This document shows, piece by piece, positions 16,942 through 64,000 of a stretch of DNA of 64,000 nt. Under the pieces are notes generated by a model. That model had not been told where the DNA came from. It did not search any database and saw only the letters and a program-made list of their open reading frames with translations. Source of the DNA: Escherichia coli (lineage in GTDB: Bacteria > Pseudomonadota > Gammaproteobacteria > Enterobacterales > Enterobacteriaceae); the NCBI RefSeq assembly GCF_050320075.1, contig NZ_CP190018.1; one strand, written 5' to 3'. Positions within the stretch are counted from its first letter, which is position 1. Every line of letters begins with the position of its first letter. The translations under genes and the position numbers were made by a program.

Positions 16942-17673
16942 CTAAGCACAAAGTTGCTTAATTCGTGCAATCACCTCATCTCTGTATTTCTGGTGTCCGC
17001 GCATAGCCCTTGGATGGGCTATCCTGAAACAGATTGTATGACCTGTTTTGAACTCCCATAGCTTCCCCGGAATGACTGAAGAAGTCTCATAGCCGCCTAG
17101 CTCAGTAAGCACCTGTTTTATGATGTAGTCTGTTCTCCGGGCTCCGGATGCAAAGATGGTGAAATCAGGCTCAAGGTGTTTAATTTGTACCGCCAGCAGT
17201 TTCAGCGAGGCTAATATGACTTCCTGCACTTCATTTTGAGGGCGATTGAGAGGGGGCAGTCCGTCGTAATCCCACGCCAGTAGATTGGCATACACGATAG
17301 CCTGAGGAGGAATATTAAGCTCCCGGGCCAGCCGGAAGTGATACTGCGTGAAGCGGCTACGTGATTTGTGGTTCGTGGTGCCATCATTTTGTGCCGGAAG
17401 ATGTTTCCTGTAACGATCTACAGCCTCTTCAACCACCTGCCCGATGGTGACGTCAGGTATAAGTCCCAGAACCCGTGATATCGTATTCTTACCATTCAGC
17501 GTATTCCAGCCAGCGGTTTCACGCCCAACCAGCATGATTTTTACCGGTGAGTGCCAGTATTCTTCAAAGGGCACGGGTAAAAAGACGCCTGAGTATTTAT
17601 CCTCATTCAGGTTAAATGACTGGGCGTCAACTTCCTGTAATATCCGTTTGTATGCGTCTAATAGTCTTTCCAT
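16942..17673 (-). CDS. hypothetical protein, 243 aa, with uracil-DNA-glycosylase-superfamily-like motif pattern (tentative)
   Basis: Long intact ORF; N-terminal KIMLVGRETAGW resembles UDG motif A (family 4 IMFVGEAPG), C-terminal IAHPRAMRG resembles motif B (HPxxxxR); no database search possible. Confidence 0.55.
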   Translation of the reverse strand: MERLLDAYKRILQEVDAQSFNLNEDKYSGVFLPVPFEEYWHSPVKIMLVGRETAGWNTLNGKNTISRVLGLIPDVTIGQVVEEAVDRYRKHLPAQNDGTTNHKSRSRFTQYHFRLARELNIPPQAIVYANLLAWDYDGLPPLNRPQNEVQEVILASLKLLAVQIKHLEPDFTIFASGARRTDYIIKQVLTELGGYETSSVIPGKLWEFKTGHTICFRIAHPRAMRGHQKYRDEVIARIKQLCA

Positions 17674-17753
17674 TCTTCAATCCTGCCCCGTAATAAAAAT
17701 ACCTTCAGATATATATTATTTTCATGATATCAATCAGATACATGAGGATAAAT

Positions 17754-18440
17754 ATGCAAAAATCCTTCCGATTCACCAATTCATCCATCAAAGCCCTTCC
17801 GGCAAACACAGATACCCGATCTACAGAGCTTGAGGTATCTGATACCGAAGTCATTGGCCTCAAATGCCTCTCAGGTCGAACGGGCAACAAACGTTTCCTC
17901 CTGCGCTACACATTCCACGGTACCAAAAAAAGTATCAGTATTGGCAGATTCCCTGAAATCGATGTGGGAACAGCCCGTCAGATAGCTCGTCGTCACAAGG
18001 AGGCGATTGCACTGGGAAATGACCCTAAGGCAGAGCGCGATAATTATCGGGCGATGCCAACGCTTAGTGAGTTTTTTCACCAGACCTATGTTCCGTTCAT
18101 CAAGCGCCATAAAAAGTCCTGGGATAAGGATGTTCAGCGTTTCACGCAATACATTGAACCTCGTCTGGGGAAGATACGTTACTGCGACCTTCAGGCCCGG
18201 GAAATCCAGCAGGTGCTTTTTGACATGCTTGAGGGCCGTATTCACGGCCAGCAGTATGCACCGTCTACCTGTAACAGGGCACTGGCTATTCTGAAAACCA
18301 TGGGCCGTTATGCGCTACGACAGGATGTCCTGGAGAAGAATGAAGCCGATAAGATCCCTTTGCTGAAGGAGAATAATCACCGGACGCGCTTTTTTGACGC
18401 TGATGAGATCAGGAGAATCCTTGATGCTGCGTCTCGATAA
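17754..18440 (+). pseudogene. P4-type tyrosine integrase, N-terminal fragment only (catalytic domain missing)
   Basis: MQKSFRFTNSSIKALP... arm-binding/DUF4102-like N terminus and core-binding region; ORF stops at ~228 aa versus ~400 aa expected, so the R..HxxR..Y catalytic domain is absent. Confidence 0.75.
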
Positions 18441-18454
18441 CCCAATAAAGCTGC

Positions 18455-18490
<36 letters not shown>

Positions 18491-18491
18491 C

Positions 18492-18535
<44 letters not shown>

Positions 18536-18655
18536 TTCTAAGGCTTGCTTTAATGCTAAGGCTAAATGATTTTGATATAGTAAGTTCATACTTAGCGGGC
18601 AGATGCCCACAGACATAGTACCGAAAATAAATCAGGTATTCTGCGAGATTTCAGT

Positions 18656-19984
18656 ATGAAAATAGCCAATATTAGACTTACGAATTTTAGATGTTTTGAC
18701 GAGTTTAGTGTTGATTTTGACCCAAGACTTACAGTTCTCATTGCTCGTAATGGTAGAGGGAAATCTACTCTGCTTGACGCGGTAGCATTAGCTTTAGGAC
18801 CATTTTTAACTCGTTTGCCAGGGATCAAAGGGCTAAGTTTCAAGAAAACCGATTTCCGGATCGACGAAAATGGAGACCAGCCGTCCTATATGCGAGTAAG
18901 TTGTACTAGTACAACGGGTATAACTTGGGATAGAACTGAGCGAAGAGATCTGACAAAAAAAACGTTAGGTAGCATCCCCCAAGGGGCAGCCCTTAAAGCC
19001 TTGAATGATTACGTCGATACGTTCATTGATTCTCACAATGAGAATAAACACTATACATTGCCAATTTTTGTTTATTACGGAACTGGGCGTGGAGTGTTTG
19101 ATATACCACTCAGAAAACGTGCATTTAACAAGCATTTTTCTCGATTTGAGGCCCTTGACGGTGCTCTTGAAAGCAAAACAAATTTCAAAAGATTTGTGCA
19201 ATATTTTTATTTTCTTGAAGAAAAAGAAAATAGATTACAGAAAGAGCAACGATCATTTGAAGTAGAAATCCCTGAATTAAGGGCAATACGCTTGGCTGTG
19301 GAAAAATTACTGCCAGAGTTTAGCAATATTCGCTCGGCAGTACCTGCTGGAATTATGGTCGATTGGTGTAAGCCTATTGGAAATGGTGAAACAACCATAC
19401 AAAAGCTAAGGATTGAACAACTTAGTGATGGCTATAGAACAACTTTAGCTATGGTTATGGATATTGCAGCAAGAATGGCAGAAGCTAACCCCTATTCGAG
19501 TGATCCTCTAAGTTCTGAGGGGATAATTCTCATTGATGAGGTAGATCTGCATCTGCATCCGGAATGGCAACGTGAGTTTCTCCCTAGATTAATCAACGTT
19601 TTCCCTCATCTTCAGTTCATAGTATCGACGCATTCACCATTTATCATCCAGTCTGTCAAAGAGGGGATGTTGGTCGATCTTGATAAAGATGACATTTCGG
19701 ATAGCCCCTCTTTGAATAAAGAACTCAGCATCGAAGATATTGCTGAGGGTGTAATGGGAATGGAAAAAGTTCAACGAAGTGAATTGTTTAACAAACAAGT
19801 CGCAGTTTCAGATAGATATTATCAGTTACTGAATGAAGGAAGAAGTGAAAGCGACCCAGAGGTAAGGAAGCTCTCCGCTGAGCTTGATAAATTGGAAGAG
19901 TTTTTTGGAGATAACCCAGCTTATGTAGCCTTACTTCGTGCTGAGCGCCGAAAAATAATGGGGACACAAGGAAGTAAACAATGA
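18656..19984 (+). CDS. ABC/AAA-type ATPase (RecF/SMC-like head, AAA_15/21-like), 442 aa; Septu PtuA-like candidate
   Basis: Walker A NGRGKST (K36), signature-like LSDGYR, Walker B IILIDEVD, H-loop STHSP; ~37% GC; stop overlaps the downstream start (ATGA). Confidence 0.85.
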   Translation: MKIANIRLTNFRCFDEFSVDFDPRLTVLIARNGRGKSTLLDAVALALGPFLTRLPGIKGLSFKKTDFRIDENGDQPSYMRVSCTSTTGITWDRTERRDLTKKTLGSIPQGAALKALNDYVDTFIDSHNENKHYTLPIFVYYGTGRGVFDIPLRKRAFNKHFSRFEALDGALESKTNFKRFVQYFYFLEEKENRLQKEQRSFEVEIPELRAIRLAVEKLLPEFSNIRSAVPAGIMVDWCKPIGNGETTIQKLRIEQLSDGYRTTLAMVMDIAARMAEANPYSSDPLSSEGIILIDEVDLHLHPEWQREFLPRLINVFPHLQFIVSTHSPFIIQSVKEGMLVDLDKDDISDSPSLNKELSIEDIAEGVMGMEKVQRSELFNKQVAVSDRYYQLLNEGRSESDPEVRKLSAELDKLEEFFGDNPAYVALLRAERRKIMGTQGSKQ

Positions 19985-20592
19985 GACCTGTAAATCGACC
20001 TCCATATAATGGAACTGTTTATGCAGATTATAAATCATTTTTACCTTCGCTATTAACTGCATATGGCGGATATTGTTCTTATTGTGAGCGGCCGGATAAG
20101 GTTGATGTGGAGCATGTTGTCCCAAAAACGCATGCACCACTTTTGATTACTGATTGGAACAATTTTTTACTGGGTTGCCCTCGCTGTAACCGAGATTTTA
20201 AAAAAAGTAAGAATACTCAACGTATAGGCTATGTTTGGCCAGATGTTGAGAATACATTTAATTTATTGACATACCATCCAGATGGTAGAGTAGAGCCTAA
20301 GCAGGGGCTGTCTGCCGGACTAACTGCGCAGGTACAGGCTACTATTGATTTGGTATGTCTTGATGATGGTAACCAAGTACAAAAAACTTTAAATCTTGGT
20401 AGAAGGAGATATTTTGGACTCGCGAATAAGGCCAAGACTCTTTATCTGAGTAATTTATTGAGTATTGATGAGGTCATGGATATGGCTCAGTTAGGATATT
20501 GGTCGATCTGGTATAATGTGTTTCAAGGTGTACCTGCTGTCCTTTCAGCTTTGGAGAATTCCTATCCTAATACCGCTATAAACCGCCCATGA
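19981..20592 (+). CDS. HNH endonuclease, 203 aa; Septu PtuB-like candidate
   Basis: Zinc-finger HNH pattern C32-x2-C35 ... H45 ... N60 ... C66-x2-C69; translationally coupled to the upstream ATPase. Confidence 0.85.
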   Translation: MRPVNRPPYNGTVYADYKSFLPSLLTAYGGYCSYCERPDKVDVEHVVPKTHAPLLITDWNNFLLGCPRCNRDFKKSKNTQRIGYVWPDVENTFNLLTYHPDGRVEPKQGLSAGLTAQVQATIDLVCLDDGNQVQKTLNLGRRRYFGLANKAKTLYLSNLLSIDEVMDMAQLGYWSIWYNVFQGVPAVLSALENSYPNTAINRP

Positions 20593-24578: not shown

Positions 24579-24594
24579 TGTGATTTGCATCACA
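24579..24594. promoter_or_regulatory. CRP-binding-site-like palindrome upstream of azuC
   Basis: TGTGAtttgcaTCACA, a perfect CRP half-site pair, ~80 bp upstream of azuC. Confidence 0.5.
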
Positions 24595-29092: not shown

Positions 29093-32448
<3,356 letters not shown>

Positions 32449-32454
32449 GTGCGG

Positions 32455-32883
32455 TTAATCTCCCGTAAGTGGAACTAACAGCACATCGACCTCACTTGAG
32501 GCAATCACTCTTTTCGCCGAGCAGGATGCTCGCGAAAAGAAACTGTGATTGTGATTACCGCAAATCACCAAATCGAAATGATATTTGCGACAAACTTCCA
32601 GAATATGTTCGCTTAACTCACCGTAGGCAATAAACGTCTTGTCAACGGGATACCCCGCATCCTGAATTAACTTATCAAGAAAGCTTTGCGTTTCTTCCTG
32701 CATCACGCTGCGTAAATCTTCAAGCATCGGCGCAGCTAATTGATTGTACATTTCCGGGTCGGAAGCGAGAGTAATTAAACTGATGTGTCCCTTTACTGGC
32801 CTGGCGATAGATACCGCTTTTGCCAGCAGTTGCTGACTTTCCGGTGTAACCGCAACGGCGACAAGAATATTGCTATAGCTCAT
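32455..32883 (-). CDS. uspC: universal stress protein C
   Basis: 142-aa Usp-family ORF. Confidence 0.9.
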   Translation of the reverse strand: MSYSNILVAVAVTPESQQLLAKAVSIARPVKGHISLITLASDPEMYNQLAAPMLEDLRSVMQEETQSFLDKLIQDAGYPVDKTFIAYGELSEHILEVCRKYHFDLVICGNHNHSFFSRASCSAKRVIASSEVDVLLVPLTGD

Positions 32884-33385
32884 AACCTGTTCCTTATTCT
32901 GTGAACTTCAGGTGACATTAAAGCTTTACTCCTAATGGAGAAACGACGCAATCCCAACTCAGTCAAACAGGTAAATATTAGTCTGATTATTAGTAAAGAC
33001 AATTAATCAATCACTCTCGGTGATCATATGATTTCAACTGTAATTATAAGAAAATAATGTACTGATTCTCCATATTAAACAAGTGGTTAATATATGTAAA
33101 ACATTTTATTAACATTAAGTTGATTGTTGCCTTTCTTTGTATTTAATTAGTTTGTTGTGCGGTAAGTGTCTGTTTAAAAATAGCTTATCTGGTATTGCAT
33201 TAAAGCAATTATTTATAGCAGATGATTATTTACGGTGAGTTATTTTAACTGTGCGCAACATCCCATTTCGATTATTCCTGTTTCATTTTTGCTTGCTAGC
33301 GTCGCGAAAAACTTTTTAACAGATTGAAATACACCCAAAACAAAAGTATGACTTATACATTTATGTTAAGTAATTGAGCGTTTTG

Positions 33386-33401
33386 TGTGATCTGCATCAC
33401 A
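33386..33401. promoter_or_regulatory. CRP-binding-site-like palindrome in the flhDC regulatory region
   Basis: TGTGAtctgcaTCACA ~270 bp upstream of flhD. Confidence 0.5.
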
Positions 33402-33663
33402 CATTATTGAAAATCGCAGCCCCCCTCCGTTGTATGTGAGTGTAGTGACGAGTAAAGTTGCGTCGATTTAGGAAAAATCTTAGATAAGTGTAAAGAACCC
33501 CTTCTATTTGTAAGGACTTATTAAATCCCAAAAAGGGGCTCTGCCTATTGCAGCTTATCGCAACTATTCTAATGCTAATTATTTTTTACCGGGGCTTCCC
33601 GGCGACATCACGGGGTGCGGTGAGACCGCATAAAAATAAAGTTGGTTATTCTGGGTGGGAATA

Positions 33664-34014
33664 ATGCATACCTCCGAGTTGCTGAAACACATTTATGACA
33701 TCAACTTGTCATATTTACTACTTGCACAGCGTCTGATTGTTCAGGACAAAGCGTCCGCAATGTTTCGTCTCGGCATAAATGAAGAAATGGCGACAACGTT
33801 AGCGGCACTGACTCTTCCGCAAATGGTTAAGCTGGCAGAAACCAATCAACTGGTTTGTCACTTTCGTTTTGACAGCCACCAGACGATTACTCAGTTGACG
33901 CAAGATTCCCGCGTTGACGATCTCCAGCAAATTCATACCGGCATCATGCTCTCAACACGCTTGCTGAATGATGTTAATCAGCCTGAAGAAGCGCTGCGCA
34001 AGAAAAGGGCCTGA
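33664..34014 (+). CDS. flhD: flagellar master regulator FlhD
   Basis: Recognised as FlhD; start at [11 protein letters not shown]. Confidence 0.9.
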
Positions 34015-34016
34015 TC

Positions 34017-34595
34017 ATGAGTGAAAAAAGCATTGTTCAGGAAGCGCGGGATATTCAGCTGGCAATGGAATTGATCACCCTTGGCGCTCGTTTGCAGATG
34101 CTGGAAAGCGAAACACAGTTAAGTCGCGGACGCCTGATAAAACTCTATAAAGAACTGCGCGGAAGCCCACCGCCGAAAGGCATGCTGCCATTCTCAACCG
34201 ACTGGTTTATGACCTGGGAACAAAACGTTCATGCTTCGATGTTCTGTAACGCATGGCAGTTTTTACTGAAAACCGGTTTGTGTAATGGCGTCGATGCGGT
34301 GATCAAAGCCTACCGTTTATACCTTGAACAGTGCCCGCAAGCAGAAGACGGACCGCTGCTGGCATTAACCCGTGCCTGGACATTGGTGCGGTTTGTTGAA
34401 AGTAGATTACTGCAACTTTCCAGCTGCAACTGCTGCGGCGGCAATTTTATTACCCACGCTCACCAGCCTGTTGGCAGCTTTGCCTGCAGCTTATGTCAGC
34501 CGCCATCCCGGGCAGTAAAAAGACGTAAACTTTCCCAGAATCCTGCCGATATTATCCCACAACTGCTGGATGAACAGAGAGTACAGGCTGTTTAA
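34017..34595 (+). CDS. flhC: flagellar master regulator FlhC
   Basis: 192-aa ORF with zinc-binding cysteines, recognised as FlhC. Confidence 0.95.
34526..34552 (+). promoter_or_regulatory. sigma28 promoter for the motAB-cheAW operon, inside the flhC 3' coding region
   Basis: TAAACTTT-N11-GCCGATAT. Confidence 0.5.
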
Positions 34596-34653
34596 CTTAT
34601 ACGGTGTGGCGCAACATTCCAGCAGCGGTAACGACGTACCGCTGCTTTTTTTT
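34560..34653 (+). ncRNA. motR: candidate MotR-type 5'UTR-derived sRNA (sigma28 promoter to intrinsic terminator)
   Basis: sigma28 promoter at 34526..34552 followed by hairpin AGCAGCGGTAACGACGTACCGCTGCT + T8 at 34621..34653, upstream of motA; boundaries approximate. Confidence 0.3.
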
Positions 34654-34721
34654 GCCCCAATCGCGCGTTAACGCCTGACGACTGAACATCCTGTCATGGT
34701 CAACAGTGGAAGGATGATGTC

Positions 34722-35605
34722 GTGCTTATCTTATTAGGTTACCTGGTTGTTCTCGGTACAGTTTTCGGCGGTTATTTGATGACCGGTGGAAGCCTTGGAG
34801 CACTCTATCAACCCGCTGAACTGGTGATTATTGCCGGTGCAGGGATTGGGTCGTTTATCGTCGGCAATAATGGCAAAGCGATTAAAGGCACGCTGAAGGC
34901 GCTGCCGTTGCTGTTTCGTCGCTCCAAATACACCAAAGCAATGTATATGGATCTGCTGGCTCTGCTTTATCGGTTGATGGCGAAATCGCGGCAGATGGGG
35001 ATGTTTTCGCTGGAACGTGATATTGAAAATCCCCGTGAGAGCGAGATCTTCGCCAGCTACCCACGCATCCTTGCGGATAGCGTCATGCTTGATTTTATCG
35101 TCGATTATCTGCGTCTGATTATCAGCGGTCACATGAACACCTTCGAAATCGAAGCCCTGATGGATGAAGAGATTGAGACGCACGAAAGCGAGGCAGAAGT
35201 CCCGGCGAACAGTCTGGCGCTGGTCGGGGACTCACTTCCGGCGTTTGGTATTGTCGCTGCTGTGATGGGGGTCGTTCACGCGTTAGGTTCAGCCGATCGT
35301 CCTGCCGCCGAGCTGGGGGCGCTTATCGCACATGCGATGGTGGGGACTTTCCTCGGTATTTTATTGGCTTACGGATTTATTTCCCCATTAGCGAGTGTTT
35401 TACGTCAGAAAAGCGCCGAAACCAGCAAAATGATGCAGTGCGTCAAAGTCACACTGCTTTCTAATCTGAACGGTTACGCACCGCCTATCGCCGTTGAGTT
35501 TGGTCGCAAAACGCTCTATTCCAGCGAACGTCCGTCGTTTATTGAACTGGAAGAGCATGTGCGTGCGGTGAAAAATCCGCAACAACAGACGACAACCGAG
35601 GAAGC

Positions 35606-35609
<4 letters not shown>
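34722..35609 (+). CDS. motA: flagellar motor stator protein MotA (GTG start)
   Basis: 295-aa ORF recognised as MotA. Confidence 0.95.
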
Positions 35610-38501
<2,892 letters not shown>

Positions 38502-59128: not shown

Positions 59129-59180
59129 CATCAAGGTCTAAATGCACTACATGGGCACCTAAACATATACATGTGATGTT

Positions 59181-59203
59181 GAGGTGTTAGAAAGGGGGCT
59201 GTT
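59181..59203 (-). terminator. hairpin downstream of the 306-aa minus-strand gene
   Basis: AGGGGGCTGTTCAGCCCCT inverted repeat immediately after the stop of 59219..60139. Confidence 0.35.
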
Positions 59204-59218
59204 CAGCCCCTGATAGAC

Positions 59219-60139
59219 TTAGTAATTATCCCTGACAACTTCATCATATCTTTCAATGAAGGTTAGTTGTTTATTACTTCCATTATAACTATCAACCCAT
59301 TTGTCTACAGCTTCATCGAATAGAAATAAAAAATCCGTATAATTTATATACACTACATTATCATAATATTGGGTTGGGTGACCTCTTTTACATACAGCAA
59401 TACTAAGACGTCTTTCTTTACCCTGAGTAACTTTGTGTGAATTAAGATTAGTCATGTGAAGCAATGAGTTCCTTAATTCATATAATTCGTCGGAAGTTAC
59501 TCCAAGTTTTTGTATATCTGAGTATGTATCTAACCAATTTTGAAAGACTCTTCTTTTGTTTCCAAACTCAATATAAGCTATAGTATCAATAAATGACATT
59601 AATAGCTTGAAGCTTGACAAGTAATGTTTTTTGTTAAACAGAAGCTTTATTGGTTCCATATGGTCATCATTAAGAAGTTCCTTAATGTGAAAACCATCAT
59701 CTTTCATATACTTATCAAGATAGTCTGGCAAGTCTTTTACACCTTCAATGTGATAGTTAGGTGTGTGCTTATTCCTTAATTGCTCTGACATTGATAACTG
59801 AATATCATATTGTAATTTGCCTTTAACAACGGGGGTGACTATAGCTAAAGGGTTTTCAGGTGCATTTTGAGCTTCTAATGCTAATTCAAACGGAGCAAAA
59901 GGATTACCAATCCGCAAATTTGCATTATATCTTTCAAGTGTCAATTTGTCATTTTCTAAAACAGAAGGGTGTATCCCATAAAATAAACGACAAGAAGCTA
60001 AGTCAATCTCCAAATTCCGCTTTAAAAAATCTAATTTTTGCGCATCATCGCCATCATGTTCGTGAGGTACTATTCCGGCATGTGTGATATGAACTCCATC
60101 AGGACTAAAGCAAAATATGTTGTAGATAATCTCTTTCAT
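59219..60139 (-). CDS. hypothetical protein, 306 aa, with RNxxxH (HEPN-like) motif; candidate Abi-type RNase (tentative)
   Basis: Long intact ORF in AT-rich DNA at the island edge; motif R223-N-S-L-L-H228 fits the HEPN R-x4-6-H consensus; no other recognisable domain. Confidence 0.65.
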   Translation of the reverse strand: MKEIIYNIFCFSPDGVHITHAGIVPHEHDGDDAQKLDFLKRNLEIDLASCRLFYGIHPSVLENDKLTLERYNANLRIGNPFAPFELALEAQNAPENPLAIVTPVVKGKLQYDIQLSMSEQLRNKHTPNYHIEGVKDLPDYLDKYMKDDGFHIKELLNDDHMEPIKLLFNKKHYLSSFKLLMSFIDTIAYIEFGNKRRVFQNWLDTYSDIQKLGVTSDELYELRNSLLHMTNLNSHKVTQGKERRLSIAVCKRGHPTQYYDNVVYINYTDFLFLFDEAVDKWVDSYNGSNKQLTFIERYDEVVRDNY

Positions 60140-61249
60140 ACCATTCTAACCTTCAGTGAAAATAAAGTTTTAACTATCATTAGATTATGAACAATCACAA
60201 TTGGCCTGTAAATAACAGGGCATAAACAGGTTCGTTTAGCTTGATTTTATCACTATAACTGTCTGATTTAACGGTAACTCACCAAGTATACACACAGTAA
60301 TTACACAATCCTGTTATTATGTAACTTATTGAAATATATAAATAATTTTTACATTCTTTGTTTGGGGTAAGCTGTGTAATGTTAGTCGTCCCTCTCCAGA
60401 CACTATATATAGTGCTATATACAGGACTATATAACGATATATAGATGTTTGGTCACATGGTATAACTATCAAACCACTTAACGATTTCCTACGTGAAAGT
60501 TAGAAAGTGATAGTTATAGTTACCTTGTCAAATCTTCGTAGTCCCTTCTTAAAAAATCGTGAAAGGTAATCTTGTTATCTATACAGAATCTACGTAGATG
60601 CTTCTTAGTGCGCAAAACAGCTATTATGTTAAAAACGCACTGTATACGTATCAGTACTGATTTATAAGGGTTTTGTGTATTGGCTGATAAGAGGCTATAC
60701 AGCACCTTGAGAGCATGTCTTCTAAGTCATTGACATATAAGGTCACAGAAGTTTGTAGCTGTTACAGAGAAAACTGGATAGGACTTCACAGAACTATAAA
60801 ATGTTACAGCTATTGATAGGTGAAATCTTCTTGATAGATGCTTTGAAGTGTGGTGAAGGCTTTTTGAGGTGGGGCTAAACAGATATCATGAAGAAAGTCA
60901 ATAGTTGATTCGGTTTATCGAATAAACCTCATAGATATTTTAAAATTCTGCAAAGGGGGTCACATAGCTGGTGTGACGGGTACTTAGCAGCTACAGACAT
61001 CTATCAGATATTTTTGAAGATTTTTAGAAGGGGAATTTGAAGAGGGGCTACTACGATTTTATAAAAATTTTCAGATTCTGAAAAGTTACTGTACAGAATA
61101 TGTACAGATATCTTTAAAGTATCTGTAAAAACTTTTAAGATAAAAGATAGATATCCCAGAAAGGATATCCGTTTAGAAAACCTATTAAGTATCTCTTAAA
61201 AGAGAGTAAACCTTGTCAAGAGTGATTGCAATAAAAATTTTTATTTCTT
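60140..61249. other. 1.1 kb AT-rich ORF-free region with clustered short repeats and palindromes (divergent control region, origin or ncRNA locus)
   Basis: No ORF above 61 aa; recurring TACAG/GATAG-containing motifs; palindrome GTCACAtagctggTGTGAC at ~60959..60977; CTATATATAG-type repeats at ~60400..60445. Confidence 0.5.
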
Positions 61250-61912
61250 ATGTCAATTGAGTGTATTTTAATCGGGAAACATCATGGGGGTTCTGATTAC
61301 TGGAGAACTCCATTTTTGTTATTTAAGAACTTACACCGTGAATTTATTTTCAGTCTGGATGGTGCTGCAACTAAGCACGATACGTTATTACCCCGCTTTA
61401 CGGATGATATTCACAATCAGTCATGGGATGGTGAACGGGTATTCTGTAACCCACCATACAGCGACACTAAAACATTCCTCGTAAAAGCGTCTGAGGCAGA
61501 TTTATCGGTATTCCTGATACCGTACCGACCCCAAACCATATACTGGCTTAAGCACATCTTCACAAACCCGCTTTGCCATGAAATCCGTATTCTTCATCGT
61601 GCAGTTAAATACCTTCCACCAGCAGGGCATAACAGGCTTACTATTAGGTCGCCGTTTCCAAGTGCAGTCGTTGTTTTTAAAAAAGAACCACGCAGGCATG
61701 AAATTACGCAGATGGTTTGCTGTGCTGATACATTGCTACCGTTAACCATCATTAACAGAGGAGGCTTGAGAGGAAGGCCCACCATTTACCCACCTGAGAC
61801 GCTCGACAGCTTCATAAAACTATACAGGCAAGGCAAACCCATTAAGTGCATTGCAGATGCTCTCAGAATGCCTCTGAGCACGTCATACAGGATTGCTCAA
61901 AGGTTGAGCTAG
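61250..61912 (+). CDS. phage Dam-like DNA N6-adenine methyltransferase with C-terminal HTH-like segment
   Basis: DYWRTPFLLF ... FSLDGAA ... CNPPYSD (motif IV N/DPPY) typical of phage N6-A MTases; C-terminal IKCIADALRMPLSTSYRIAQRL looks helix-turn-helix; start codon uncertain. Confidence 0.6.
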   Translation: MSIECILIGKHHGGSDYWRTPFLLFKNLHREFIFSLDGAATKHDTLLPRFTDDIHNQSWDGERVFCNPPYSDTKTFLVKASEADLSVFLIPYRPQTIYWLKHIFTNPLCHEIRILHRAVKYLPPAGHNRLTIRSPFPSAVVVFKKEPRRHEITQMVCCADTLLPLTIINRGGLRGRPTIYPPETLDSFIKLYRQGKPIKCIADALRMPLSTSYRIAQRLS

Positions 61913-62276
61913 AATTCTCATAAATATGGTCATTTACAAGACAGGTGATTTAGATATTAAGAGGTATCCCTGTGAACAATAAATGACCAATCAGTAATTA
62001 TCCTGTGAAATAATTGTTGCAATTTATAATCACACATGGTATAGTTTCATAGTGGACTGATAAAAAAGTTCATGTCTTGAAGTGGTAACACTTGGGGAGG
62101 TGTCAGATGATTGACGTATATTAACCTCTCATTCATGGTAATACCTCAGCGTTTTAATCATCGTACTGTTTCAGGCATGGACTTCTTTATCAGTCCATCA
62201 ATCCCCCAGATATTTTAATCACACAGGCTAATCGGTTTTATCCGGTTGGCCTTTTCACGTATGAGGTAATTTATGA

Positions 62277-63245
62277 ATGAAAAAAGAAACTAATGCTTTT
62301 ATTATGGTAGATAAACGAGTTGCACAATTCCCTAAAACATTAAAGCCAATTGACCGCTTGGTATATTTCACTATGCTGGATGGTGCTGATTATTACGAAT
62401 CTAAGTTCGGGAGATACGCACCAAGTATTGACTATTTGATGGTTATGTCTGGTGCTACACGTAATACAGTTATTGATTCACTTAAGAGACTTGAGTCACA
62501 CAGACTTATCGAAAAGACCAATGTAAAGGGTCAGCAAAGTATTTTTAAAGTATTCACGTTGGATGAGCGTCCAGAGGTCTTATCAGAACCTACCCTTGAT
62601 GAGCGTCGTAGAGCTAAATTATCAGGTCAACCAGAATCTGACAGTAACCCAACCAAAAATTGGTTACCTACCCAACCAGAATTTGGTTACCTACCTAACC
62701 AGAATTTGGTTACATGTAATACTGAATATAAAGACAAAAATATAAATACTGAAGAAGAAAGACTAAAAGGGAACTTTGAAGAAGAATCTCTTAAGAAGGG
62801 AGCTTCGCTCTGTGATTCACATGAATGTGATATTAAAGAAGATGACTTTCTTTCTTTGGATGAATTAAATGATTTTCTCTCTATGAATGAATCTGGCCTT
62901 GATAGTGAAGCTACTAAAGAGGCTGTTAAAAAGGAAGATAAAATCTCTGATGTGAATATCGATAGTGACCATAAAAACACACAGTGCCCCGCCACTGATG
63001 ATGAGATGGACCCCTTCGATGATTACCTTGATGAAGAGTCAGAGCGTGAAAAAGCCATTAAGAGGGTAGAGAAGAAAAAGAGATTCGAGCTTGCAAGACA
63101 AAAGAACAAAGTATCGGGTTTAGACCCATTCGATGACAGTGACGATGATGACTTTTCTTTCACACCAAGAAAGAAACAAACTCAGGATGACAAGAAGCAA
63201 AAAATTAAACCGAAGATGTATTTTGCTGGTGGAGGTATGCGCTAA
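62277..63245 (+). CDS. winged-helix DNA-binding protein with long acidic low-complexity tail (replication-initiator/regulator-like)
   Basis: N-terminal ~95 aa resemble phage Rep/replisome-organiser winged helix; C-terminal two-thirds D/E/K-rich with a twice-repeated DPFDD motif. Confidence 0.55.
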   Translation: MKKETNAFIMVDKRVAQFPKTLKPIDRLVYFTMLDGADYYESKFGRYAPSIDYLMVMSGATRNTVIDSLKRLESHRLIEKTNVKGQQSIFKVFTLDERPEVLSEPTLDERRRAKLSGQPESDSNPTKNWLPTQPEFGYLPNQNLVTCNTEYKDKNINTEEERLKGNFEEESLKKGASLCDSHECDIKEDDFLSLDELNDFLSMNESGLDSEATKEAVKKEDKISDVNIDSDHKNTQCPATDDEMDPFDDYLDEESEREKAIKRVEKKKRFELARQKNKVSGLDPFDDSDDDDFSFTPRKKQTQDDKKQKIKPKMYFAGGGMR

Positions 63246-63541
63246 TGAAAGAATATCACGGTGAAAAGAGATACAAAGATTACCTGTTAAAGCGTTATAG
63301 CATTTCTCGTGAAGGCCACTTAATGAAGGATACTCACGGGGAAGTTTACCGGATTAGACCGAAGAAAGAAGGGAGGGATTATTTCTTTTACGATGGTGTG
63401 ACAGATTTAAAGATTGATGCTTTGAAGTTTGCGGCGCTGTATCATTATGATATCTGGGACTCAGTCCACCAGCTACGATTAAAAGACGGTGACCCCGGTA
63501 ATCTGAGGGCCACCAATATTATCAAGGGAAAGTGCCGGTAA
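63245..63541 (+). CDS. small HNH-like endonuclease-domain protein (tentative)
   Basis: 98-aa ORF translationally coupled (ATGA overlap) to the upstream gene; VHQLRLKDGDPGNLRATNI resembles the HNH_3 H-x-DG-x-NL-x-T pattern. Confidence 0.4.
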   Translation: MKEYHGEKRYKDYLLKRYSISREGHLMKDTHGEVYRIRPKKEGRDYFFYDGVTDLKIDALKFAALYHYDIWDSVHQLRLKDGDPGNLRATNIIKGKCR

Positions 63542-63799
63542 GTCCACCAGCTATTTATTTATTGAAATCTCTATCTCAACACGAAGAAGTTTAAGTCGAA
63601 TTGTAAGCTTTGTCTTTTTTGTAATGACTCGATTCATAACGCAAAACACCAATAGCACAATAAATACCGCAAAGCCCAACGAGCTAAAACGATGAGATTC
63701 AATAATTGCTGTGAAAAAATCATGCATTAATTTTCCTTTTGCGAAAGGAAACAGCACCTGTATCAGCCCCTATAACCATAATATCATGTAAATGAGATG

Positions 63800-63828
63800 T
63801 TGACAATATGTTAAATAAATGTTATGAT
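63800..63828 (+). promoter_or_regulatory. near-consensus sigma70 promoter
   Basis: TTGACA-N17-TATGAT followed by AAGGAG Shine-Dalgarno and ATG at 63866. Confidence 0.5.
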
Positions 63829-63865
63829 TGTAGTATGAGTAAGAGATTTAAGGAGATTTTTACAA

Positions 63866-64000
63866 TGACTCACACAGTTACGCGCCTTTTGCCAGAGGCA
63901 TTTGAACGACTGGCAGCAATCAAAGCCAAATATCCCGATATGAAGCACACAGCGCTTGTTGGAGAGCTTTTAAAAGAGTCGGTAACCCTGACCCCTTTCG
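63866..64000 (+). CDS. ribbon-helix-helix-like DNA-binding protein, 5' portion only (runs off window end)
   Basis: MTHTVTRLLPEAFERLAAIKAKYPDMKHTALVGELLKE has the beta-strand then helix pattern of RHH/CopG/antitoxin-type proteins; strong promoter and SD upstream. Confidence 0.4.

What the first reader, a model, noticed from the sequence alone, without database searches (positions are those of the whole stretch)
32884..33663. flhDC regulatory region is intact and IS-free
The ~780 bp between uspC and flhD contains no insertion sequence or transposase ORF. Laboratory K-12 lineages often carry IS1/IS5 insertions here that raise motility. The region retains a perfect CRP palindrome (TGTGAtctgcaTCACA, 33386..33401). 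This strain therefore has the basal, regulated flhDC promoter.
Basis: partly seen in the sequence, partly recalled or inferred. Interest (0 to 1): 0.2.

Follow-up and report, generated by a model that had tools for sequence, protein, structure and literature searches.

The report
Ordinary IS-free flhDC promoter region
The 780 bp between uspC and flhD is the normal, uninterrupted control region of the E. coli flagellar master operon, as in about 97% of complete E. coli genomes, so the finding is correct but ordinary.

Summary
uspC runs 32455..32883 (-), the flhD ATG is at 33664, and the 780-bp gap holds no IS, IS end or transposase fragment. TGTGATCTGCATCACA lies at 33386..33401.

After removing IS1 from MG1655 and IS5 from W3110, both K-12 sequences are collinear with the window: 38 substitutions and one 1-bp indel. 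The two K-12 target sites, 33358..33365 and TTAA 33366..33369, are empty here.

An empty interval is the norm. Three 400-bp sub-queries are uninterrupted in 96.6-99.0% of 5,426 complete genomes. The MG1655-type IS1 junction occurs in 49 genomes and the W3110-type IS5 junction in 62. Every listed carrier is a K-12 laboratory line or has a K-12-sized (about 4.5-4.7 Mb) genome.

Three qualifications apply:
- The perfect CRP palindrome is the species-majority allele (4,224 genomes). K-12's TCACG variant is the minority (411).
- The window carries a minority haplotype (about 6%) with -10 hexamer TAAAGT instead of TACAGT, plus a cluster of 5'UTR differences.
- Lacking an IS does not predict low motility, because IS-free uropathogenic strains are reported as highly motile.

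Verdict: already known, low interest. Side note: FlhC carries a rare G130R change (2 of 5,426 genomes) at a poorly conserved position.

The parts
32455..32883 (-). uspC coding sequence (142 aa), transcribed divergently from flhDC
   Evidence: ORF. NCBIfam UspC equivalog at 280.7 bits against a cutoff of 167. Annotated uspC in the near-identical strains 746 and YZLc1-3.
32884..33663 (.). uspC-flhD intergenic regulatory region, 780 bp, AT-rich (GC 0.27-0.43), uninterrupted
   Evidence: 100% identical to many natural isolates. No IS similarity.
33358..33365 (.). Unoccupied target site CATTTATG, which is duplicated on either side of IS1H in MG1655
   Evidence: IS1H boundaries and the 8-bp duplication were read from NC_000913.3. 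The window holds a single copy.
33366..33369 (.). Unoccupied TTAA, the IS5 target duplicated in W3110, at -99..-96 from the transcription start
   Evidence: W3110 junctions. PMC5100188 places the IS5 TTAA target 96-99 bp upstream of the flhD start, which matches a start at 33465.
33386..33401 (.). CRP (CAP) binding site TGTGATCTGCATCACA with both half-sites at consensus, centred at 33393.5 = -71.5
   Evidence: The K-12 homologue is TGTGATCTGCATCACG. CAP is reported to bind about 72 nt upstream of the flhD start (bioRxiv 10.1101/2021.05.11.443715, citing Soutourina 1999).
33430..33458 (+). Inferred flhDC core promoter: -35 TTGTAT (33430-33435), 17-bp spacer, -10 TAAAGT (33453-33458; TACAGT in K-12 and in 8 other haplotypes)
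   Evidence: Position is inferred from the homology-mapped start at 33465. The hexamer difference is shown. The A allele occurs in 348 of 5,426 genomes. The simple consensus scan did not call this weak, activator-dependent promoter.
33465..33663 (+). flhDC 5' untranslated leader, 199 nt (198 nt in K-12; extra T at 33526), with 10 differences from K-12 clustered at 33497..33545
   Evidence: The start was mapped from the MG1655 annotation, where the AsflhD 3' end at 1978395 equals ATG+198, using the alignment. Haplotypes are compared and predicted folds.
33465..33685 (-). Homologue of the antisense RNA AsflhD, which starts 22 nt inside flhD and runs to the flhD transcription start
   Evidence: MG1655 annotation b4839. 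bioRxiv 10.1101/2021.05.11.443715. Assigned by homology only; there is no Rfam family.
33664..34014 (+). flhD, intact, protein identical to K-12 FlhD
34017..34595 (+). flhC, intact, 192 aa; differs from K-12 by E111D and G130R
   Evidence: The G130R allele is in 2 of 5,426 genomes. Position 130 is variable across the family.

Best explanation
This is the ordinary, uninterrupted uspC-flhDC intergenic region of a natural E. coli isolate. It belongs to a small clone closest to strains YZLc1-3 and Ec-U3. The interval carries the standard flhDC control architecture. An AT-rich upstream silencing region is followed by a consensus CRP site centred at -71.5, which makes this a class I CRP-activated sigma-70 promoter. 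Next come a weak core promoter and a 199-nt leader that is the known target of CsrA, several small RNAs and the antisense RNA AsflhD. No insertion sequence has landed in it, so transcription should remain under these native controls. That contrasts with the MG1655 (IS1) and W3110 (IS5) laboratory lines. Shown here: the anatomy, the absence of any IS, collinearity with K-12, and the population frequencies. Inferred from K-12 literature by homology: the transcription start, CRP dependence and repressor binding.
For: The genes and the gap are confirmed. K-12 with its IS removed is collinear with the window: 1,559 against 1,560 bp, 38 substitutions and one 1-bp indel. IS1H and IS5 are annotated in MG1655 and W3110 exactly where the window has single-copy CATTTATG and TTAA. 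The interval is 100% identical to many natural isolates. 400-bp sub-queries are uninterrupted in 5,370, 5,243 and 5,268 of 5,426 genomes. There is no IS similarity, terminal repeat, transposase fragment or multi-copy plasmid match. The CRP pattern is far above chance. Its centre at -71.5 and the TTAA at -99..-96 both agree with published positions (PMC5100188; 10.1101/2021.05.11.443715). FlhD and FlhC are intact.
Against: Nothing contradicts the structural claim. Functional equivalence to the K-12 IS-free promoter is not shown. The haplotype has A for C in the -10 hexamer and in the spacer, found in only 348 of 5,426 genomes. It also has 10 leader differences that change the predicted fold. 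The sub-query method would miss insertions shorter than about 700 bp in other genomes, and insertions within about 80 bp of either flanking gene, so the population percentages are approximate.
Confidence: 0.95

Rival explanations
1. The interval is intact, but it is a functionally distinct cis-regulatory allele. The lineage-specific changes would shift the flhDC expression set-point without any IS. These changes are -10 TACAGT to TAAAGT, spacer C to A at 33439, and the leader cluster at 33497..33545 that strengthens a predicted hairpin.
For: All nine other haplotypes examined have C at 33439 and 33455. The A allele is confined to 348 of 5,426 genomes. The predicted leader fold differs: -60.3 against -54.2 kcal/mol, with a different hairpin at +19..+95. 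IS-free natural isolates can be highly motile (10.1101/840991).
Against: Both hexamers match the TATAAT consensus at 4 of 6 positions. The folds are predictions without covariation support. No expression data exist. Neutral lineage polymorphism in an AT-rich intergenic region is the default expectation.
Confidence: 0.2
2. The promoter is intact, but motility in this clone is altered downstream by rare coding changes: FlhC G130R and CheW S106A. In that case the state of the promoter says little about the phenotype.
For: The G130R allele was found in only 2 of 5,426 complete genomes. It lies seven residues before the first invariant cysteine of the C137/C140/C157/C160 cluster. CheW S106A is shared by the same clone.
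Against: Position 130 is poorly conserved among 65 diverse FlhC homologues: G 28, D 9, R 7, K 7, N 5. Arginine is therefore naturally tolerated. The allele persists in isolates from China and Burkina Faso, which argues against a recent disabling laboratory mutation.
Confidence: 0.08
3. The interval hides a degraded IS, a MITE or an excision scar.
For: None was found. The region is AT-rich and is a known IS hot spot (PMC5493358).
Against: The window aligns base for base with K-12 minus its IS elements, and the target sites are single-copy. There are no terminal repeats and no similarity to IS1 or IS5. There are no multi-copy hits among 72,556 plasmids. The same 780-bp length is found in natural isolates.
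Confidence: 0.01

Closest known systems
IS-free uspC-flhDC intergenic region of E. coli K-12 lines such as BW25113, RV308 and NEB5-alpha (the 'poorly motile' K-12 type)
   Same: Same genes, same order, and nearly the same length (780 against 779 bp). Same CRP site position, same inferred transcription start and same leader organisation. About 97.5% identical.
   Different: 38 substitutions and one 1-bp indel across uspC to flhD. The CRP half-site is TCACA here and TCACG in K-12. The -10 hexamer is TAAAGT against TACAGT. Ten differences cluster in the leader at +33..+81.
IS-activated flhDC promoters of MG1655 (IS1H) and W3110, MC4100 and DH10B (IS5)
   Same: The flanking sequence and the target sites are the same. 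These are CATTTATG at 33358..33365 and TTAA at 33366..33369.
   Different: The window has no IS and no target-site duplication.
Class I CRP-dependent promoters (CRP site centred near -61.5, -71.5, -82.5 or -92.5)
   Same: A consensus 16-bp core is centred at -71.5 from the homology-mapped start (10.1101/2021.05.11.443715).
   Different: Nothing structural differs. Activation by CRP was not measured for this allele.

Membership tests
Wild-type (uninterrupted) E. coli uspC-flhDC intergenic region | Flanked by divergent uspC and flhD, with flhC and motAB downstream | tested here: met
   Annotation of near-identical genomes.
Wild-type (uninterrupted) E. coli uspC-flhDC intergenic region | Collinear over its full length with the K-12 interval once the K-12 IS elements and one target-duplication copy are removed | tested here: met
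   1,560 against 1,559 bp, 38 substitutions and one 1-bp indel.
Wild-type (uninterrupted) E. coli uspC-flhDC intergenic region | Same uninterrupted arrangement as the bulk of the species | tested here: met
   Sub-queries are uninterrupted in 96.6-99.0% of 5,426 genomes. The interval is 100% identical to many isolates.
IS-activated flhDC allele (K-12 laboratory type) | An IS1, IS5 or other IS between uspC and the flhD promoter | tested here: not met
IS-activated flhDC allele (K-12 laboratory type) | Duplicated target site (CATTTATG or TTAA) flanking the insertion | tested here: not met
   Both sites are single-copy in the window.
Class I CRP-activated promoter | Match to TGTGA-N6-TCACA | tested here: met
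   Perfect match at 33386..33401, with a chance expectation of 0.02 per window.
Class I CRP-activated promoter | Site centred near -71.5 from the transcription start | tested here: met
   The centre at 33393.5 lies -71.5 from a start at 33465. The start was mapped by homology from the MG1655 annotation and cross-checked against the published -99..-96 IS5 site (PMC5100188). The start was not measured in this strain.
Class I CRP-activated promoter | Transcription depends on cAMP-CRP | not testable with these tools
   Known for K-12 and UTI89 from the literature (10.1101/2021.05.11.443715; 10.1101/840991). Not measured for this allele.

The most novel reading that the evidence does not exclude
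The window's minority haplotype could be a natural, IS-independent cis-regulatory variant that resets flhDC expression in a phylogenetically restricted group (about 6% of genomes). Its features are a changed -10 hexamer and spacer, a consensus CRP site, and a leader with a stronger predicted hairpin. In this particular clone it is combined with rare FlhC G130R and CheW S106A changes.
Probability: 0.15. Interest if true: 0.3.

Novelty: already known. Interest (0 to 1): 0.06.

Why it matters
It matters little beyond annotation. The result says that this strain's flagellar master operon is under its native multi-input control and has not been rewired by a transposon. That is the normal condition in E. 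coli outside certain K-12 laboratory lines.

Two by-products are useful. First, a population figure: about 1-3% of complete genomes have this interval interrupted, and 111 of them carry the two canonical K-12 junctions. Second, a reminder that the K-12 reference is atypical at the CRP site, because the consensus palindrome is the species norm.

Tried and rejected
- **Rfam:** a scan of 31000..36000 at E<=1 gave no match. No curated family covers the flhD leader or AsflhD.
- **Promoter scan:** the simple sigma-70 consensus scan did not call the flhDC promoter and found no more sites than shuffles do. That is expected for a weak, activator-dependent promoter.
- **Repeats:** The repeat finder gave only chance-level short repeats.
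- **Primary papers:** Barker 2004, Soutourina 1999, Fahrner and Berg 2015 and Zhang 2017 are not held in the library. Published positions are therefore cited second-hand from PMC5100188, PMC5493358 and two bioRxiv preprints.
- **FlhC G130R as an inactivating change:** I considered this and rejected it as the leading reading, because position 130 is variable and R or K occurs in 14 of 65 diverse homologues.
- **Compensatory changes in the leader:** I looked for them across 10 haplotypes. The differences change stem strength rather than co-varying cleanly, so no structural claim is made.
- **First 1,560-bp query:** this search could not detect IS insertions, because split matches up to 1,280 bp apart are joined into one place. 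I replaced it with 400-bp queries and with junction queries.

Full report
**Observation**

The window around the finding reads otsB, otsA, then uspC (32455..32883, minus strand), a 780-bp gap (32884..33663), then flhD (ATG 33664, 116 aa), flhC (34017..34595), motA and motB. NCBIfam equivalog models confirm UspC, FlhD and FlhC well above their cut-offs.

The sequence TGTGATCTGCATCACA is at 33386..33401, as stated. The pattern TGTGA-N6-TCACA occurs twice in the 64-kb window against 0.02 expected from shuffles. The gap is AT-rich, with GC between 0.27 and 0.43.

**Absence of an IS**

MG1655 (NC_000913.3) has IS1H, 768 bp, annotated between flhD and uspC. W3110 (NC_007779.1) has an IS5 transposase gene there.

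- In MG1655 the element is flanked by a duplicated CATTTATG.
- In W3110 the 1,195-bp IS5 is flanked by a duplicated TTAA.

After removing each IS and one copy of its duplication, the two K-12 sequences become identical to each other (1,559 bp). They align end to end with the window's 1,560 bp, differing by 38 substitutions and one 1-bp indel. The window holds single, unoccupied copies of both target sites, at 33358..33365 and 33366..33369.

Other checks agree:
- Direct comparison of the gap with IS1H and IS5 gives only 9-11 nt chance matches.
- No IS1 or IS5 terminal repeat is found, even allowing 3-5 mismatches.
- Neither element occurs anywhere in the 64-kb window.
- The longest ORF in the gap is 44 aa, and none has a Pfam match above threshold.
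- A sensitive blastn of the gap against 72,556 plasmid records hit only 13 records. Seven are chromosome-scale E. coli records holding the same locus, five are Salmonella homologues of the promoter-proximal part, and one is evidently misassembled. A fragment of a common IS would have hit very many records.

**How unusual is an IS-free interval?**

It is not unusual. The uspC-flhD segment is 100% identical to many natural isolates from dogs, humans, poultry and water. That first query could not reveal insertions, because the tool joins split matches, so I used 400-bp sub-queries. With these, an insertion of 700 bp or more splits the match into two places.

| Sub-query (window) | Genomes uninterrupted, of 5,426 | Percent |
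|---|---|---|
| 32884-33283 | 5,370 | 99.0% |
| 33124-33523 | 5,243 | 96.6% |
| 33264-33663 | 5,268 | 97.1% |

Junction queries of 40 bp of flank plus 20 bp of IS end found two groups:
- The MG1655-type IS1 junction is in 49 genomes, including MG1655 stocks and derivatives and RP437. Four small-genome isolates labelled as of human or chicken origin (HS-01, HS-02, BS-01, BS-04) also carry it.
- The W3110-type IS5 junction is in 62 genomes, including W3110, MC4100, DH10B, MC1061, HMS174 and AG100.

Every listed carrier of either junction is a named K-12 laboratory line or has a K-12-sized genome of about 4.5-4.7 Mb. Many other K-12 lines are IS-free here, for example RV308 and NEB5-alpha.

Natural isolates with IS1 in the interval do exist, but they are rare and look different:
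- Strains 2017.17.01CC and EC06, both from human gut, have uspC, then IS1, then a deletion that removes flhDC through flhE.
- Strain TUM13881 has IS1 with a deletion on the uspC side.

**Mapping the control elements**

MG1655 annotates the antisense RNA AsflhD as ending at 1978395. That is 198 nt upstream of the flhD ATG and is the flhD transcription start. Through the alignment this maps to window 33465; the window's leader is one base longer.

Two independent published positions fit this start:
[quoted passage not shown] That equals 33366..33369.
[quoted passage not shown] The centre of the site, 33393.5, is at -71.5.

The inferred core promoter is TTGTAT (33430-35), a 17-bp spacer, then TAAAGT (33453-58). 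This is the geometry of a class I CRP-dependent promoter. [quoted passage not shown] Similarity to Salmonella, at about 70%, covers only 33383..33661. That stretch runs from the CRP site to the ATG, which marks the conserved functional core.

First, K-12's own CRP site is TGTGATCTGCATCACG, with G at the position of window 33401. The exact 40-mer with the perfect palindrome is in 4,224 genomes and the K-12 version in 411. The window therefore has the species-typical site, and the reference strain is the odd one.

Second, the window is not the K-12 promoter. Only about 6% of genomes are 99% or more identical to it. Among ten haplotypes aligned, only the window has A at 33439 (spacer) and A at 33455 (-10 hexamer TAAAGT against TACAGT). 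The A allele at 33455 occurs in 348 of 5,426 genomes. Ten differences from K-12 cluster in the leader at 33497..33545, and the predicted minimum-energy fold differs: -60.3 against -54.2 kcal/mol. These folds are predictions only, and I saw no clean compensatory pattern.

Third, an IS-free promoter does not imply low motility. A preprint reports that three uropathogenic strains lacking any insertion were fast and flagella-dependent, with cAMP control retained in UTI89 (10.1101/840991).

**State of the regulator itself**

FlhD is identical to the K-12 protein. FlhC differs from K-12 by E111D and G130R, and from its near-identical relative strain 746 by G130R alone.

The G130R codon was found in only two complete genomes: YZLc1-3 (chicken, China) and Ec-U3 (human urine, Burkina Faso). 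Each differs from the window at only 3 positions over 40-50 kb.

Among 65 diverse FlhC homologues, position 130 is variable (G 28, D 9, R 7, K 7, N 5), whereas C137, C140, C157 and C160 are nearly invariant. The substitution is therefore probably tolerated.

**Verdict**

This is the known, ordinary state of a well-studied locus: novelty 'already known', interest low.

Noticed in passing
window 34404 (flhC codon 130): FlhC carries G130R (GGA to AGA). The change is absent from K-12 and from the near-identical strain 746. It was found in only 2 of 5,426 complete genomes (YZLc1-3 and Ec-U3). Position 130 is variable across 65 diverse FlhC homologues, with R or K in 14, so the change is probably tolerated.
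   Followed up: yes
window 38837 (cheW codon 106): CheW carries S106A relative to strain 746. The change is shared with YZLc1-3 and Ec-U3 (same protein accession, WP_106475179.1). Two of the nine substitutions that separate the window from strain 746 over the first 59 kb are therefore non-synonymous changes in motility genes.
   Followed up: partly
window 33401; 33439; 33455; 33497..33545: The K-12 reference is atypical at the CRP site: TCACG in 411 genomes against consensus TCACA in 4,224. Conversely, the window's -10 hexamer TAAAGT and spacer A are confined to about 6% of genomes. A cluster of leader polymorphisms, including one extra T at 33526, changes the predicted 5'UTR hairpin.
   Followed up: partly
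window 24579..24594: A second perfect CRP palindrome, TGTGATTTGCATCACA, lies about 83 bp upstream of the azuC start codon (24677). It is the only other exact match in the window.
   Followed up: no
window 59131..64000: From 59131 the window loses all similarity to strain 746. A foreign AT-rich element interrupts yecE. It encodes a phage-type Dam methyltransferase (PF05869) fused to an HTH domain, an HTH_36-like protein and several proteins without matches. The full 4.9 kb is present at 100% identity only in YZLc1-3 and Ec-U3, the same two genomes that carry FlhC G130R.
   Followed up: partly
window 16942..20592: A small island lies next to the tRNA-Gly/Cys/Leu cluster. By annotation of the near-identical genomes it contains a hypothetical protein, a truncated integrase, an AAA-family ATPase and an HNH endonuclease. 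It may be a defence-type gene pair.
   Followed up: no
L017 (NZ_AP027822.1), L018 (NZ_CM169496.1), L019 (NZ_CP128907.1): Natural human isolates with IS1 in the uspC-flhD interval show IS1-adjacent deletions. Two have lost flhDC through flhE entirely, with uspC-IS1 joined to the region next to argS. One has lost ftnA through uspC, leaving IS1 upstream of flhD.
   Followed up: partly
plasmid record HM037272.1 (hit H388): A Bacillus thuringiensis CT-43 plasmid record contains 490 bp that are 97% identical to the E. coli uspC-flhD intergenic region. This is most likely contamination or misassembly in that record.
   Followed up: no
window 33383..33661: Nucleotide similarity to Salmonella (about 70%) begins at the CRP site and runs to the flhD ATG. 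The 500 bp upstream show no detectable similarity, which suggests that the distal silencing region evolves freely.
   Followed up: no
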